Below, one piece after another: positions 1,790 through 47,222 of a stretch of 64,000 bases of DNA. Origin of the DNA: Squalus acanthias (taxonomy: Eukaryota). Within the stretch, counting starts at the first letter, position 1. Every line of letters begins with the position of its first letter. The stretch lies in assembly GCA_030390025.1 (NCBI GenBank), contig CM059431.1, positions 101,434,001-101,498,000 of the forward strand. Reading direction: 5' to 3'. The position numbers and the translations under genes were made by a program. Under the pieces are notes generated by a model, which saw nothing but the letters and a program-made list of their open reading frames with translations, was not told where the DNA came from and did not search any database.

Positions 1790-1962
1790 CTGAAAGAGAT
1801 CAAAAATCACAAATTCAAAACGGTAACTGTATAAGAATAGGAGCACAGACAGAGTGTCTGTACAGATAACACCTGCTCCGTGTGATCATCTGCACTGGTT
1901 TCAATCGTCTGAGGGGGTCGGAGAGCAATTTTCCAAAATAATTGTTCCCTTATTGGCTCAAT

Positions 1963-2705
1963 GGGGGCGGGGGGGGAGGGAGGGAGGGAGGGGGAAGGGG
2001 GGNNNNNNNNNNNNNNNNNNNNNNNNNNNNNNNNNNNNNNNNNNNNNNNNNNNNNNNNNNNNNNNNNNNNNNNNNNNNNNNNNNNNNNNNNNNNNNNNNN
2101 NNNNNNNNNNNNNNNNNNNNNNNNNNNNNNNNNNNNNNNNNNNNNNNNNNNNNNNNNNNNNNNNNNNNNNNNNNNNNNNNNNNNNNNNNNNNNNNNNNNN
2201 NNNNNNNNNNNNNNNNNNNNNNNNNNNNNNNNNNNNNNNNNNNNNNNNNNNNNNNNNNNNNNNNNNNNNNNNNNNNNNNNNNNNNNNNNNNNNNNNNNNN
2301 NNNNNNNNNNNNNNNNNNNNNNNNNNNNNNNNNNNNNNNNNNNNNNNNNNNNNNNNNNNNNNNNNNNNNNNNNNNNNNNNNNNNNNNNNNNNNNNNNNNN
2401 NNNNNNNNNNNNNNNNNNNNNNNNNNNNNNNNNNNNNNNNNNNNNNNNNNNNNNNNNNNNNNNNNNNNNNNNNNNNNNNNNNNNNNNNNNNNNNNNNNNN
2501 NNGAGGGAGGGAGGGGGAGAAGAGGGAGGGAGGGGGAGAAGAGGGAGGGAGGGGGAGAAGAGGGAGGGAGGGGGAGAAGAGGGAGGGAGGGGGAGAAGAG
2601 GGAGGGAGGGGGAGAAGAGGGAGGGAGGGGGAGAAGAGGGAGGGAGGGGGAGAAGAGGGAGGGAGGGATGGGGGGGGAGGGAGGGGGAGGGAGGGAGGGG
2701 GAGGA
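1963..2705. repeat. Polypurine tandem repeat (gagggagggagggggagaa, 19-bp unit) flanking the gap
   Basis: About 8 units visible right of the gap and G/A-rich sequence left of it. Confidence 0.9.
2003..2502. other. Assembly gap (500 N)
   Basis: Run of N. Confidence 1.
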
Positions 2706-3320
2706 AGGGACAAAAGGTCCAGTCACGATGCTCCGGCCATTATGAGTGTGGGGCAGCCTTGATGGACCCGCTGGTCTTTTTCAGCCCGTCAGTTTTGTAT
2801 GTTATTCTACTTTTGTACTCAATTTTCCAGGTGAGAATCATTCACTTCACCAGGCAATACTTGGGGGATTTTCAAGGGTGTCTTTAATGTTCTCATCATT
2901 TGCCAATTATATTTTGGGAGAATTTTTATACTCATTCAAGTGACAGGTGTTGTTGCTGGTGAAAAGAACGCTTTTAATTTCAGCCACTCACTGCCAAGAT
3001 ATAGCACTGTTGGTTCCACAGAAAAGTTCCCTCTACTCTGCTCCAGCACCGTGCCCCAAAGTCCCAATCCAAATCTGTGAAGAGAACATCTGATTCCCGA
3101 AAATTGGGCTTTCGACACAAAATGGAATCTTCCTTATCACCCGTGACTCACAATTTTTATTTATTGACTTAAACTGTATAAAAACACTGGGCTATTTCTG
3201 CACAAAGTATTCCCTGCATATACCTGCCATACACCTGCTGGCTTGAGTTGGATGTTTCTCCTCGTACTTGTGATGAGAAATTTTTTAATCGGAACTTTCC
3301 ACCTGTTTGTCATAGGAACG

Positions 3321-17477: not shown

Positions 17478-19700
17478 TCCTATTTCTTATGTTCTTACAA
17501 CTGCATCTGAATGTAAACCGTAAACAATTGCAACATTCTAAAAGACAGATTTATAAAGTATGCACTTTCACTTTTAATGTGAGTACATTAGCGCTGTTCC
17601 AAATTAGTCAGAAATTAAAGAGGAACTCTGAAGAGTGAAGATTTGAAATGAAACTAAAGTAAAAAAAAAATTCAAACCCAGCTGCTTAGTTCTTCTCACA
17701 CATTTAGGTGTTTGGTGTTTTAAATTTAATCTTTTGATGTGCAGAAAGCAGTATTTTAGGAGCCAGTGATGAGTGTAGGGAGGTACTGAGGAGGGTATCA
17801 AGTCGCAGGAATGTACCGGCAGACAGGAAGGTGGCTTGAAGTGTGTCTACTTCAATGCAAGGAGCATCCGGAATAAGGTAGGAGAACTTGGAGCGTGGAT
17901 TGGTACTTGGGACTACGATGTGGTGGCCATTACGGAGACATGGTTAGAACAGGGACAGGAATGGTTGTTGGAAGTTCCGGGGTATAGATGTTTCAGTAAG
18001 AGTAGGGAAGGTGGTAAGAAAGGTGGAGGAGTAGCATTGTTAATCAAGGATAGTTTAACAGCGGCAGAAAGGCAGTTCGAGGGGGATCTGCCGTCTGAGG
18101 TAATATGGGCTGAAGTTAGAAATAGGAAAGGAGCGGTCACGTTGTTAGGAGTTTTCTACAGGCCCCCAAATAGTAATAGAGATGTGGAGGAAGAAATTGC
18201 AAAGCAGATTATGAATAGGTGTGGAGGTCACAGAATAGTTGTCATGGGTGACTTCAACTTTCCAAATATTGATTGGAACCTTTATAGGTCAAACAGTTCG
18301 GATGGGATAGTTTTTGCACAGTGTGTGCAGGAGGGTTTCCTGACACAATATGTGGATAGGCCGACAAGAGGTGGGGCCACATTGGATTTGGTACTGGGTA
18401 ATGAACCGGGCCAAGTGTTTGATTTGTATGTGGGAGAGCACTTTGGAGATAGCGACCACAATTCGGTGACTTTCACTATTGCAATGGAGAGGGATAGGGC
18501 CATACGGCAGGGCAGGGTTTATAATTGGGGGAGGGGTAATTATGATGCGATTAGGCAAGAATTAGGGAGCATAAGATGGGAACAGAAACTATCAGGGAAA
18601 GGCACAAACGAAAAGTGGAGCTTTTTCATGGAGCAATTACTGCGTGTCCTTGATAGGTATGTCCCTGTCAGGCAGGGAGGAAATGGCTGAGTGAGAGAAC
18701 CATGGTTCACAAAAGAGGTTGAATGTCTAGTCAAGAGGAAAAAGGAAGCGTATGTAAGGATGAGAAAACAAGGTTCAGTTGGGTCGATTGAGGGGTACAA
18801 GGTAGCAAGGAATGAGCTAAAAAAAGAGCTTAGGAGAGCTAGGAGGGGGCATGAGAAGTCCTTGGCGGGTCGGATCAAGAAAAATCCCAAGGCTTTTTAC
18901 TCTTATGTGAGAAATAAAAGAATGACCAGGGTGAGGGTAGGGCCGGTCAAGGACAGTAGTGGGAACTTGTGCATGGAGTCAGAAGAGATAGGAGAGGTGA
19001 TGAATGAATACTTTTCGTCAGTGTTCACCAAGGAGAGGGGCCATGTTTTTGAGGATGAGAGTGTGATTAAGGTGGATAGGCTGGAGGAGGTAGACGTTCT
19101 GAGGGAAGATGTTTTAGCAATTTTGAAGAACCTGAGGGTCGATAAGTCCCCTGGGCCAGATGGGATATATTCTAGGATTCTTTGGGAGGCAAGGGAGGAG
19201 ATTGCAGAGCCTTTGGCTTTGATCTTTGGGTCCTCACTGTCCACGGGGATGGTGCCAGAGGACTGGAGAGTGGCGAATGTTGTTCCTCTCTTCAAGAAAG
19301 GAAATAGGAATGACCCTGGTAATTATAGGCCGGTTAGTCTTACTTCGGTGGTTGGTAAGATAATGGAAAAGGTCCTGAGGGATAGGATTTATGACCATTT
19401 GGAAAGAGGCAACTTAATCAGGGATAGTCAACACGGATTCGTGAAGGGTAAGTCTTGCCTAACAAATTTGATTGAATTCTTTGAGGAGGTAACTAAGTGT
19501 GTGGATGAAGGTAGAGCAGTTGATGTCGTATACATGGATTTTAGTAAGGCGTTTGATAAGGTTCCCCATGGTCGGCTCATGAAGAAAGTAAGGAGTTGTG
19601 GGATAGAGGGAAATTTGGCCGATTGGATAAGTAACTGGCTATCTCATAGAATTGAGAGGTCGCACAACACCAGGTTATAGTCCAACAGTTTTATTTGAAA

Positions 19701-19742
19701 TCACAAGCTTTCGGAGCTATCGATCGCCCCTTCCTCAGGTGA
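19701..19742 (-). ncRNA. Minimal hammerhead ribozyme motif (inverted copy, sense to UBAC2 pre-mRNA)
   Basis: Exact reverse complement of 19869-19910. Confidence 0.8.
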
Positions 19743-19868
19743 AGTAGTAAAGAAATACAGACTCGACAAAGCATATATAGATAGAGAACAATGCATGTGT
19801 ACCTTACAATTGCAGACAACTAAATTAAATCTATATATGCTTTGTCGAGTCTGTATTTCTTTACTACT

Positions 19869-19910
19869 TCACCTGAGGAAGGGGCGATCGATAGCTCCGA
19901 AAGCTTGTGA
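19869..19910 (+). ncRNA. Minimal type-I hammerhead ribozyme motif (PLE family B)
   Basis: tcac-CTGAGGA-a-ggggc[gatcgata]gctcc-GAAA-gc-TT-gtga: stem I tcac/gtga, intact core, palindromic AAGCTT at stem III. Confidence 0.8.
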
Positions 19911-21279
19911 TTTCAAATAAAACTGTTGGACTATAACCTGGTGTTGTGCGACCTCTCAATTTTGTCCACCCCAGTCCAACACCGGCATCTCCGTATCACT
20001 ATCTCATAGAAGGCAGAGGGTGGTGGTGGATGGAAAATTTTCGGACTGGAGACCAGTTACCAGCGGTGTGCCACAGGGGTCGGTGCTGGGTCCTCTGCTG
20101 TTTGTGATTTTTATCAATGACTTGGAGGAGGGGACTGAAGGGTGGATCAGTAAATTTGCTGATGACACCAAGATTGGTGGAGTAGTGGATGAGGTGGAGG
20201 GCTGTTGTAAGCTGCAAAGAGACATTGATAGGATGCAGAGCTGGGCCGAAAAATGGCAGATGGAATTTAACCCTGATAAGTGCGAGGTGATTCATTTTGG
20301 TAGGGCAAATTTGAATAAGGATTACAGGGTCAACGGCGGGGTTCTGAGGAACGTGGAGGAACAGAGGGATCTGGGGGTTCATATCCACAGATCTCTGAAG
20401 GTTGCCACTCAAGTGGATAGAGCAGTAAAAAAGGCCTATGGTGTGTTAGCGTTTATTAACAAGGGGTTTGAGTTTAAGAACCGTGAGTTTATGCTACAAC
20501 TGTACAGGACCTTGGTGAGACCACATTTGGAATAGTGTGTGCAGTTCTGGTCACCTCACTATAGGAAGGACGTGGAAGCATTGGAAAGAGTGCAAAGGAG
20601 ATTTACCAGGATGCTGCCTGGTTTGGGGGGGAGGTCTTATGAGGAGAGATTGAGGGAGTTGGGGCTTTTCTCTTTGGAGCGGAGGAGGATGAGAGGCGAC
20701 TTAATAGAGGTTTATAAGATGATGAGGGGGATAGATAGAGTGGATGTTCAGAGACTATTTCCTCGGGTGGAGGTAGCTGTTACGAGGGGGCATAACTATA
20801 AGGTGCATGGGGGGAGATATAGAAGGGATGTCCGAGGTAGATTCTTTACTCAGAGAGTGGTTGGGGTGTGGAATGGACTGCCTGCTGTGATAGTGGAGTC
20901 GGACACTTTAGGAACTTTCAAGCGGTTATTGGATAAGCACATGGAGCACACCAGAATGATAGGGAGTGGGATAGCTTGATCTTGGTTTCGGACAATGCTC
21001 GGCACAACATCGAGGGCTGAAGGGCCTGTACTGTTCTATGTTCTATGTTCTATATGTGCCAATAAAGAAAAAGAGCAAACTTTGGACAAACGTGTTCCAA
21101 TTTTATCACAATACTTTCTGAACAAAGTACTTCCCACATCTCTACCCCTGTTTCACACCTATATATATTTTCTGCTTGAAACTTTCAAACAGACTCGTCA
21201 GACCAATTAGCTCACAAGATAGTTCCAGATAAAGCAAGCCATTCACCCATCTTTGTTCATCCGTCCAGAAAGGCCCTAA

Positions 21280-46436: not shown

Positions 46437-46859
46437 CAGGTGCTGAGTCTGTTGTCTACCTTTGACAAATATTCAAACATTGCTTTTGACAAGACCTGTT
46501 GTCCATGTCATTAACTTGGGTTTTCCACGTCTTAATCATCATTTCTCCCTTCCTATCCTGAAGGTTCTGCCTCCTACATGGGGCATGGTTCTATGGGCAA
46601 TTACAATGCAGGTAATTTTTTTCTTTGCTCAAGAAGAGCAAAGCATGTGTTGTCCTGGCAAATGTGACACCTCAACACATGGCAATGCATCAATCTGTTG
46701 CTAATAAACGTTGGCTTGTTCTCTCTACACAGATGCGGCCGGACCTGCTGTGATTTCCAGCAAAAAAAGTTTTTTGTTTTCCATACAGACCCCAGCATCT
46801 GCCACATTGTCTTTGATGTAATGTTTTGCTGACTGACCTGTTTGGACACCATCCACACC

Positions 46860-47110
46860 TTTGATTGCCGTGATTATCTCTCTGCCGAGGTGTGATAAAG
46901 GGCAGTTGGAAAGATTAACTGCAATCATCTGGCTGTGTTCTCTGACTATATATGCTGTGCCTATATGTATCTCTTCACTTCACCTGACGAAGGAGCAGCA
47001 GCTCCGAAAGCTTGTGATTTCAAATAAAACTGTTGGACTATAACCTGGTGTTGTGCGACTTCTCACATTTGTCAACCCCAGTCCAACACCGGCATCTCCA
47101 CATCATGGCT
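46860..47110 (+). mobile_element. Penelope pLTR (family B)
   Basis: Homologous to 19829-19998. Confidence 0.8.
46980..47017 (+). ncRNA. Minimal hammerhead motif (family B)
   Basis: tcac-CTGACGA-a-ggagc[agca]gctcc-GAAA-gc-TT-gtga. Confidence 0.8.
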
Positions 47111-47222
47111 AATAAATAGGTACAGCAATGACACCCACCCAATACTCTGCTACAATTATCACCTCTGCTCAATGTATGCAGGTTATCAGTCAATAATTCT
47201 GAGAAAAAAAATTGAGGATAAT

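What the first reader, a model, noticed from the sequence alone, without database searches (positions are those of the whole stretch)
19639..20011. 347-bp ORF-less hairpin insertion carrying a hammerhead ribozyme on each strand
Seen: a 13-bp TSD (ctatctcatagaa) brackets an insert made of two apparently perfect 133-bp inverted arms (19650-19782 and 19829-19961), a 46-bp spacer and a short unpaired 3' extension. Each arm holds a complete minimal hammerhead (CUGAGGA...GAAA-GC-UU, stem I ucac/guga). Established: Penelope-like retroelements carry minimal hammerheads in their pLTRs, often have inverted pLTRs, and such minimal hammerheads are reported to cleave as dimers through a palindromic stem III. 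Inference: this is a very young insertion that has a sense hammerhead whichever strand is transcribed, yet folds into a long dsRNA that could mask it or feed ADAR/Dicer. It may be a mobile non-autonomous family (retrozyme- or MITE-like) in its own right. It lies in UBAC2 intron 1.
Basis: partly seen in the sequence, partly recalled or inferred. Interest (0 to 1): 0.75.

Follow-up and report, generated by a model that had tools for sequence, protein, structure and literature searches.

The report
Ordinary hairpin-shaped Penelope retrotransposon insertion
The 347-bp hairpin is a routine, very recent insertion of an extremely abundant Penelope-like retrotransposon, laid down as two head-to-head truncated copies, and its hammerhead motifs are the ones such elements always carry.

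Summary
In detail: there are two perfect 133-nt inverted arms, a 46-nt spacer, a 37-nt one-sided tail and a 13-bp target-site duplication. A minimal hammerhead motif sits on each strand.

It is not a separate element. The parent is a young, very abundant Penelope-like element (PLE). It has a 3138-bp tandem unit and an RT plus GIY-YIG ORF. The "spacer" is parental sequence: in 33 of 34 near-identical copies it lies next to the arm in the opposite orientation. So the insert is an inverted, tail-less, 5'-truncated copy (about 180 nt) abutting a direct 5'-truncated copy (170 nt, with tail).

This layout is the commonest form seen for this family:
- 13 of 20 sampled loci have it.
- 26 head-to-head motif pairs occur among the first 100 listed motif places.
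- Inner junctions differ between loci, apart from one shared pair, and TSDs are 12-14 bp.

The insert's own junction is unique in the 3.7-Gb genome. It therefore does not propagate as a family.

The literature already describes this layout, the tail, PLE hammerheads and priming on both DNA strands (PMC8557442, PMC4209133, PMC11167929). Ribozyme activity and dsRNA effects were not tested. Verdict: already known, low interest.

The parts
19639..19651 (.). Left copy of the 13-bp target-site duplication, CTATCTCATAGAA.
   Evidence: In one search the uninterrupted LINE form carries one copy (13 nt fit both sides of the joint).
19652..19831 (-). Inverted, 5'-truncated, tail-less PLE copy. It comprises the left arm 19650/52-19782 plus the 'spacer' 19783-19828, and corresponds to about 2925-3101 of the 3138-bp PLE unit. 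The last 3 nt (ATC, 19829-19831) are shared with the direct copy as junction microhomology.
   Evidence: blast to a natural tandem unit, L022 530-3667. (the spacer lies inverted next to the arm in 33 of 34 copies). (loose ends at 19831 continue as parental sequence).
19829..19998 (+). Direct 5'-truncated PLE copy. It comprises the right arm 19829-19961 plus the 37-nt tail 19962-19998, corresponds to unit positions about 2975-3138, and ends at the A of the parental ORF's ATG.
19962..19998 (+). PLE 'tail': a 37-nt AC-rich extension present at one end only. In the tandem parent it is the sequence just upstream of the ORF start codon.
   Evidence: Literature: PMC8557442 and PMC11167929.
19869..19910 (+). 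Minimal hammerhead motif:
- Helix I: UCAC (19869-72) pairs with GUGA (19907-10).
- Core: CUGAGGA (19873-79).
- Extra A at 19880.
- Helix II: GGGGC (19881-85) pairs with GCUCC (19894-98).
- GAAA (19899-902).
- Palindromic AGCU.
- Predicted cut after U19906.
   Evidence: No Rfam hit. Cleavage was not tested.
19701..19742 (-). Mirror-image minimal hammerhead motif on the minus strand. The predicted cut is after 19705, read on the minus strand.
   Evidence: exact 32-mer at 19707-19738 on the minus strand. (perfect arms).
19999..20011 (.). Right copy of the 13-bp target-site duplication.

Best explanation
The feature is a single, very recent integration event of an active, high-copy canonical (RT + C-terminal GIY-YIG) Penelope-like element into the RT-coding part of a LINE.

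Inferred mechanism:
1. The PLE protein cut both target strands with a 13-bp stagger.
2. Each 3'-OH primed reverse transcription of PLE RNA at one of two adjacent internal start sites. One lies at the ORF's ATG (copy with the tail). The other lies about 37 nt upstream (copy without the tail).
3. Both cDNAs stopped early, after about 170 and 180 nt.
4. They were joined head-to-head through a 3-nt microhomology (ATC).

The 46-nt 'spacer' is just the extra length of the longer, inverted copy.

The hammerhead motifs are the parental pLTR ribozyme motif, copied twice in opposite orientation. At this locus they are passengers. A transcript of either strand holds one sense motif locked in a 131-bp perfect duplex with its antisense copy, so self-cleavage here is unlikely.

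Shown: the parent family, the architecture, the family-wide recurrence and the uniqueness of this junction. Inferred: the dual-strand priming and joining steps, and the inactivity of the ribozyme.
For: Parent family
- DNA search of the own genome with 19783-19998 gave 898 first-look candidates, of which 40 were scored. 34 places are 99% identical over arm plus tail.
- The upstream ORF fragment gave 60,912 first-look candidates. 139 were scored, all 95-100% identical, many with a 921-aa open frame.
- The ORF carries RVT_1 (E 1.4e-8) and GIY-YIG (E 2.3e-4, 21.9 bits).
- The tandem unit is 3138 bp, and a pLTR-type direct repeat is spaced 3136 bp apart.

Spacer is parental
- In 33 of 34 copies the spacer lies on the opposite strand directly next to the arm.

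Family-wide architecture
- 13 of 20 sampled loci have an adjacent inverted 5'-truncated copy.
- In the 18 hairpin insertions with a mapped outer end, the inverted copy ends at unit positions 3098-3109 in 17 (tail-less; L028 is unclear) and the direct copy ends at 3138.
- TSDs of 12-14 bp, all different, were found in 15 of 19 insertions.
- Among the first 100 listed motif places there are 26 -/+ pairs within 3.2 kb, against 2 +/- and 2 ++.

This junction
- It is unique in the genome.

Literature
- PMC8557442 (passages): PLE insertions are 5'-truncated, often have an inverted 5'-truncated copy at the 5' end, carry a 30-40-bp tail at one end, and hold the HHR in the pLTR.
- PMC11167929 (main text read): a purified PLE protein cleaves and extends both strands. 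Reverse transcription starts at two adjacent internal sites, and the sequence between them is the tail.
- PMC4209133 (abstract, results, discussion and start of methods read): min-HHR features, pairs of min-HHRs 100-700 bp apart on opposite strands, and no detectable cleavage by single motifs.

Folding
- The insert as RNA has an MFE of -257.5 kcal/mol, almost all of it one duplex.
Against:
- About a third of the sampled hairpins are nearly symmetric: 6 of 18 have inner ends within 10 nt of each other. A snap-back of one cDNA could also produce that.
- L003 and L004 share one inner junction yet have different TSDs. Junction hot spots, or rare re-mobilisation of a hairpin, therefore cannot be excluded for other loci.
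- The GIY-YIG Pfam score is just under the curated cut-off (21.9 against 22.6 bits).
- Rfam hammerhead models do not match, so the ribozyme call rests on motif criteria and context.
- The 20-locus sample came from the best-scoring places of one search and is not a random sample.
Confidence: 0.9

Rival explanations
1. The hairpin is a member of an independent non-autonomous mobile family (retrozyme-, MITE- or foldback-like) that is copied as a unit, arms and spacer together.
For: It is short, ORF-less, has long inverted arms and a TSD. Two other hairpins, L003 and L004, share an identical inner junction with different TSDs.
Against: - The junction 36-mer is unique in 3.7 Gb even with 3 mismatches.
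- The L003/L004 junction has only those 2 exact copies, plus 2 with 2 mismatches.
- Apart from that L003/L004 pair, the sampled hairpins have different inner junctions.
- The ends are asymmetric (a tail on one side) and equal the parental PLE ends.
- The TSD length matches that of the parent family.
- Among the first 100 motif places there are no short direct tandems (0 ++ pairs under 1 kb), which a retrozyme would need.
Confidence: 0.03
2. One cDNA was made from the tail, then folded back on itself and self-primed (snap-back). The hairpin would then come from a single priming event rather than from priming on both target strands.
For: 6 of 18 sampled hairpins are nearly symmetric, with tiny loops. 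A short microhomology or palindrome sits at junctions such as TGCA or CAATTG in L003/L004.
Against: - In a simple snap-back the tail-bearing copy should be the longer one, and the loop should be in the parental orientation next to it. Here the tail-less copy is about 50 nt longer.
- In the sample the longer copy is on either side.
- The outer end of the inverted copy is fixed at unit 3098-3109 in 17 of 18 hairpins with a mapped outer end. That fits a second defined start site (PMC11167929) better than an arbitrary end-joining point.
Confidence: 0.06
3. The perfect palindrome is an assembly artefact, with reads of a simple PLE fragment mis-joined.
For: PMC8557442 notes that PLE tandem and inverted structures cause assembly problems. 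No listed contig bridges the unique junction, but that list was cut (9102 pieces not shown).
Against: A clean 13-bp TSD brackets the whole structure inside a continuous LINE reading frame. The same architecture with proper TSDs recurs at many loci.
Confidence: 0.01

Closest known systems
[quoted passage not shown] 2021, PMC8557442).
   Same: - 5' truncation.
- An adjacent inverted 5'-truncated copy forming inverted repeats.
- A 37-nt tail at one end only.
- The HHR in the pLTR-derived part.
- A parent with RT plus GIY-YIG and tandem/pLTR organisation.
   Different: Nothing essential. This copy is extremely short (no ORF part at all), so only the hairpin remains.
PAc (Poseidon of Anolis carolinensis) in vitro integration (Frangieh et al. 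2024, PMC11167929).
   Same: - Both target strands can be cut and extended.
- There are two adjacent RT start sites, and the interval between them is the tail.
- The tail is AC-rich.
- Targets lean AT-rich.
   Different: In PAc the start sites lie 111-118 nt inside the ORF. Here the genomic ends lie at the ATG and about 37 nt upstream of it. This family was not tested in vitro.
Minimal hammerhead ribozymes of metazoan PLEs (Cervera and de la Pena 2014, PMC4209133). Also Lunse, Weinberg and Breaker, 'cleave RNA as dimers', of which I saw only the title, in the reference list of PMC6765202.
   Same: - CUGANGA and GAAA boxes.
- An unpaired nucleotide between A9 and G10.1.
- A G10.1-C11.1 pair.
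- A 4-bp helix I.
- No real helix III, but a palindromic AGCU.
- Location in the pLTR.
- Pairs of motifs on opposite strands 100-700 bp apart, as reported there.
   Different: Helix II is 5 bp with one G.U pair, against 7-8 bp in the Schistosoma families. Activity was not tested.
Animal non-LTR retrozymes (Cervera and de la Pena 2020, PMC7229834, abstract only; Li et al. 2026 bioRxiv 10.64898/2026.07.22.740005, abstract and passages).
   Same: Short, ORF-less, hammerhead-bearing and PLE-related.
   Different: Retrozymes are direct tandem repeats that amplify as families and give circular RNAs. This is a single inverted pair with a unique junction and no tandem repeat.

Membership tests
Penelope-like element (canonical EN+) insertion | The parent encodes a reverse transcriptase followed by a C-terminal GIY-YIG endonuclease in one ORF. 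| tested here: met
   The 892-aa ORF of L020 carries RVT_1 at E 1.4e-8. Its C-terminal 199 aa carry GIY-YIG at E 2.3e-4, 21.9 bits, just under the 22.6 cut-off. The 3' non-coding region of such copies is 99% identical to the insert.
Penelope-like element (canonical EN+) insertion | Tandem or partial-tandem organisation giving pseudo-LTRs. | tested here: met
   L022 holds a tandem array with a 3138-bp period. L020 holds a 217-nt direct repeat spaced 3136 bp apart around the ORF.
Penelope-like element (canonical EN+) insertion | 5' truncation, with an inverted 5'-truncated copy adjacent at the 5' end. | tested here: met
   The insert is rc(unit ~2925-3101) plus unit ~2975-3138. The same layout occurs in 13 of 20 sampled loci.
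Penelope-like element (canonical EN+) insertion | A 30-40-bp tail present at one end only. | tested here: met
   A 37-nt tail at 19962-19998 lies on the right side only. The inverted copies end at unit 3098-3109 in 17 of the 18 hairpin loci with a mapped outer end; L028 is unclear.
Penelope-like element (canonical EN+) insertion | A hammerhead motif in the pLTR region. | tested here: met
   The motif lies about 90 nt upstream of the ORF ATG in L020 and L022 and in the insert. The genome holds 23,946 forward and 23,727 reverse matches of the pattern, against 0 and 0 for the reversed control.
PLE minimal hammerhead ribozyme (min-HHR, PMC4209133) | Conserved core boxes CUGANGA and GAAA, with H17 before helix I. 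| tested here: met
   CUGAGGA at 19873-79, GAAA at 19899-902 and U17 at 19906. The boxes are invariant in 5 aligned copies of 3 subfamilies, while N7 and loop 2 vary.
PLE minimal hammerhead ribozyme (min-HHR, PMC4209133) | [quoted passage not shown] | tested here: met
   Extra A at 19880. G19881 pairs with C19898. A-G-C-U at 19902-19905 is palindromic. The MFE of a single arm shows helices I and II, but it is no more stable than shuffles (z -0.99).
PLE minimal hammerhead ribozyme (min-HHR, PMC4209133) | Compensatory variation in the helices across copies. | tested here: inconclusive
   The listing shows mostly one-sided changes (G.U for A-U or G-C). One variant has a double change (GGAGTT..AACTCC). 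The pattern fixed the core and helix I, so this is not an unbiased test.
PLE minimal hammerhead ribozyme (min-HHR, PMC4209133) | Self-cleavage, as a dimer or with protein help. | not testable with these tools
The published single motifs were inactive (PMC4209133), and PAc HHR needed protein (PMC11167929).
Rfam hammerhead families (curated covariance models) | A match to any hammerhead covariance model. | tested here: not met
   No hammerhead hit at gathering score on the window. None at E<=10 on 19300-20350 or on a single arm, 19840-19940. This is expected for a motif without helix III.
Animal non-LTR retrozyme | Direct tandem repeats of a short HHR-bearing unit that amplify as a family. | tested here: not met
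   The only direct repeat found around the insert is the TSD-containing D1; there is no tandem of an HHR-bearing unit. The junction is unique. There are 0 short ++ pairs among the first 100 motif places.
MITE / foldback DNA transposon | Many copies sharing the same terminal inverted repeats and internal structure, with symmetric ends. | tested here: not met
   The ends are asymmetric (one-sided tail) and the internal junction is unique. The arms are 99-100% identical to a retroelement's 3' region.

The most novel reading that the evidence does not exclude
Because this PLE's integration often writes head-to-head copies, the genome may hold on the order of ten thousand perfect or near-perfect hairpins. 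That figure is an extrapolation from 26 pairs among the first 100 of 47,673 motif matches. Hairpins sitting in transcribed introns or LINEs, such as this one, could be a built-in source of double-stranded RNA (small RNAs or A-to-I editing). Such RNA would feed back to silence the still-active PLE family. The element's own insertion mechanism would then seed its repression.
Probability: 0.12. Interest if true: 0.45.

Novelty: already known. Interest (0 to 1): 0.1.

Why it matters
It matters little as a discovery. It is a textbook-shaped footprint of Penelope-like element integration in a genome where the family is young and very numerous.

It has modest value as in vivo corroboration of a published in vitro result. 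At this locus and the other hairpin loci examined, the genomic ends of the direct and inverted copies fall at two fixed sites about 37 nt apart (one locus, L028, is unclear). That is what priming on both strands from two start sites predicts.

It is also a caution for annotation. Such hairpins score as microRNA precursors in covariance-model scans.

Tried and rejected
- **Rfam scans**. No hammerhead family matched. The strong sub-threshold hits to plant and animal miRNA precursor models (MIR821 at 145.9 bits against a gathering score of 249, and others) only reflect a long perfect hairpin. I rejected them.
- **Public runs**. All four runs laid (X1 and X2 DNA; X9 and X6 guessed RNA) are contigs, and the stretch is made of repeats. 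They give no usable evidence on expression, transcript ends, editing, small RNAs or insertion polymorphism. The higher summed contig depth downstream of the predicted cut site in X9 and X6 cannot be interpreted, because that block is shared by several subfamilies. The 360-nt skipping joint most likely comes from other LINE copies.
- **UBAC2 intron 1.** A Pfam scan of 44 of the 255 stop-free stretches of 70 codons or more in the window found only LINE RT and endonuclease domains. The six-frame-open region 1810-2884 is an N gap (2003-2502) flanked by G/A-rich simple repeats. The gene assignment stays untested.
- **Solved structures.** No PDB relative of the PLE ORF at E<=0.01.
- **Earlier notes of this scan.** Nothing near the place.
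- **Second batch of 18 loci.** The survey therefore rests on 20 plus 8 loci.
- **Lunse et al.** (PMC5785218) is not held.
Full report
**Observation**

- The repeat finder reports arms 19650-19782 and 19829-19961: 133 nt, 100% complementary, 46 nt apart.
- The 13-mer CTATCTCATAGAA stands at 19639-19651 and again at 19999-20011.
- The insert is 19652-19998 (347 bp). Its last 37 nt (19962-19998) have no partner on the left.

The flanks are one LINE:
- An APE-type endonuclease ORF lies at 17779-18687. RVT_1 profile positions 5-107 end at the insert, and positions 106-204 resume after it.
- The RT reading frame runs on across the site once the 347-bp insert plus one TSD copy (360 bp) is removed.
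- Contigs of two DNA runs hold the uninterrupted form, with 13 nt fitting both sides of the joint. That fixes the boundaries. These contigs probably come from other LINE copies and say nothing about polymorphism.

A 32-nt motif, CTGAGGA-A-GGGGC-GATCGATA-GCTCC-GAAA-GC, is present once on each strand. The looser pattern has 3 matches in the window against 0.04 expected. The third match is at 46984-47013.

**What the parent is**

A search of the window's own genome (3.7 Gb, 3882 contigs) with spacer plus right arm plus tail gave 898 first-look candidates, of which 40 were scored. 34 places are 99% identical over arm plus tail. In 33 of those 34, the 'spacer' matches on the opposite strand directly next to the arm. 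So the spacer is ordinary parental sequence that lies inverted in our insert.

Longer copies run upstream into an ORF.
- The ORF fragment has 60,912 first-look candidates. The 139 scored are all 95-100% identical, and many have a 921-aa open frame.
- One copy has an 892-aa ATG ORF with RVT_1 (E 1.4e-8). Its C-terminus carries GIY-YIG (E 2.3e-4, 21.9 bits against a 22.6 cut-off).
- Copies form tandem arrays with a 3138-bp period, and pLTR-type direct repeats are spaced 3136 bp apart.

RT followed by GIY-YIG, pLTRs and tandem arrays define a canonical Penelope-like element. In the tandem unit the 'tail' is simply the about 37 nt just upstream of the ORF's ATG. The hammerhead motif lies about 90 nt upstream of that ATG.

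**Anatomy of the insert**

I used a natural tandem unit (L022 530-3667) as a ruler. On that ruler the insert is rc(unit ~2925-3101) followed by unit ~2975-3138.
- The left part is an inverted, 5'-truncated copy that lacks the tail.
- The right part is a direct, 5'-truncated copy that has the tail.
- The two are joined head-to-head.
- The inverted copy is about 50 nt longer, and that excess is the 'spacer'.
- The two copies overlap by ATC (19829-19831), a 3-nt microhomology. Contigs from other copies run on past 19831 as parental sequence (loose ends).

**This shape is the commonest one sampled**

Of 20 further loci taken from the list, 13 have an adjacent inverted 5'-truncated copy, 5 are single copies, and 2 are tandem or complex. 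This was not a random sample.

Across the hairpin insertions examined:
- Of the 18 with a mapped outer end, 17 have the inverted copy ending at unit positions 3098-3109. L028 is unclear, because a tail-like piece follows after 233 nt.
- The direct copy ends at 3138.
- The inner ends differ from locus to locus, apart from the L003/L004 pair described below. The longer copy can be on either side, and 6 of 18 are nearly symmetric.
- TSDs of 12-14 bp, all different, were found in 15 of 19 insertions. L004 holds two insertions, and one of them is cut by the end of the locus.

An independent view comes from the motif pattern CTGANGA-N(8-30)-GAAAGCTTGTGA.
- It has 23,946 forward and 23,727 reverse matches in the genome, and none for the reversed control.
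- Among the first 100 places listed there are 26 neighbouring -/+ pairs within 3.2 kb, 17 of them within 400 bp. There are only 2 +/- pairs and 2 ++ pairs.

A hammerhead on each strand of a short hairpin is therefore commonplace here.

**Is it a family of its own?**

No.
- A 36-mer across the spacer/right-arm junction occurs once in the genome, even when 3 mismatches are allowed.
- The only recurrent junction I met is shared by L003 and L004, which have different TSDs and different left ends. It has just those 2 exact copies, plus 2 places with 2 mismatches.
- Hairpins are made anew at integration. They are not copied as units.

**Mechanism**

The published description of PLE insertions fits point by point. 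They show strong 5' truncation, often an inverted 5'-truncated copy at the 5' end, a 30-40-bp tail at one end only, and the HHR in the pLTR (PMC8557442, passages read).

Frangieh et al. (PMC11167929, main text read) showed that a purified PLE protein cleaves and extends both target strands. They also showed that reverse transcription starts at two adjacent internal sites, and that the tail is the sequence between them.

I therefore infer the following steps:
1. A staggered double cut 13 bp apart.
2. Priming on both strands, one from each start site.
3. Early termination of both cDNAs.
4. Joining by microhomology.

These steps are inferred, not shown. A single-cDNA snap-back is the main rival. 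It predicts that the tail-bearing copy is the longer one. That is not so here or in about half the asymmetric cases.

**The hammerhead**

By the criteria of Cervera and de la Pena (PMC4209133; abstract, results, discussion and start of methods read), the motif qualifies as a PLE min-HHR:
- CUGANGA and GAAA boxes.
- An extra nucleotide between A9 and G10.1.
- A G10.1-C11.1 pair.
- A 4-bp helix I.
- No helix III, but a palindromic AGCU.
- A position in the pLTR.

That paper also reports pairs of min-HHRs 100-700 bp apart on opposite strands.

In an alignment of 5 copies from 3 subfamilies:
- The boxes are invariant.
- N7, helix II positions and loop 2 vary.
- The about 60 nt after the predicted cut site are invariant.

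The single-arm MFE shows helices I and II, but it is no more stable than shuffled sequence. Rfam's hammerhead models do not match. The variant list is not an unbiased covariation test. Cleavage is untested.

Published single min-HHRs were inactive, and dimers only weakly active (PMC4209133). The anole motif needed the protein and was dispensable for insertion in vitro (PMC11167929).

At this locus, either transcript would carry one sense motif sequestered in a 131-bp duplex (MFE -257.5 kcal/mol, z -42). The direct dimer that the literature invokes cannot form from an inverted pair. I regard the motifs here as passengers.

**Age**

The arms match at 133 of 133 positions. The arm plus tail differs from the 34 near-identical copies by 1 base in 170, a C-to-T at a CpG in the tail. 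The insertion is very young.

**Not settled**

Expression, small RNAs, editing, polymorphism and the claimed UBAC2 intron were not settled.

**Verdict**

This is a correct observation of an ordinary object: an already known kind of PLE insertion, of low interest.

Noticed in passing
window 46709-47107 (+): A second PLE 3'-end fragment of about 400 nt, from another and older subfamily (CUGACGA core, loop AGCA, helix II GGAGC/GCUCC). It is a single copy with no inverted partner, ends in ...CATCATG, and is flanked by GCTAATAAA on both sides (46700-46708 and 47108-47116).
   Followed up: partly
window 17779-20976 (+): The host LINE looks young and nearly intact. It has an APE endonuclease ORF of 303 codons, and its RT frame is open across the insertion site, with the first stop about 170 codons downstream of it.
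   Followed up: partly
window 19907-19966 and the same block in L020, L022 and window 47018-47077: The about 60 nt just after the predicted hammerhead cut site are invariant in all 5 aligned sequences from 3 subfamilies, whereas the sequence before the motif is divergent. This block ends where the tail-less copies end, so it may hold the signal for reverse-transcription initiation.
   Followed up: no
L003 (G000:C2889) and L004 (G000:C3): Two hairpin insertions share exactly the same inner junction (...CTTACAATTGC/ATTGTTC...). They have different TSDs and different outer left ends, and no further exact copies exist in the genome. This suggests a junction hot spot at short palindromes (CAATTG, TGCA).
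   Followed up: yes
L024 and L032 (G000 C11 and C7): Some direct copies end at unit position about 3103-3104 (tail-less) at their 3' end. Both presumed start sites are therefore used on the 'direct' side too.
   Followed up: no
window 1960-2720: An assembly gap of 500 N (2003-2502) sits inside a G/A-rich simple repeat (GGGAGGGAGGGGGAGAAGA-like units). It mimics a region open in all six frames.
   Followed up: partly
window 19658-19953, both strands: The hairpin scores up to 145.9 bits against the plant miRNA precursor model MIR821 (gathering score 249), and also against other miRNA models. These are false leads caused by the perfect duplex.
   Followed up: yes
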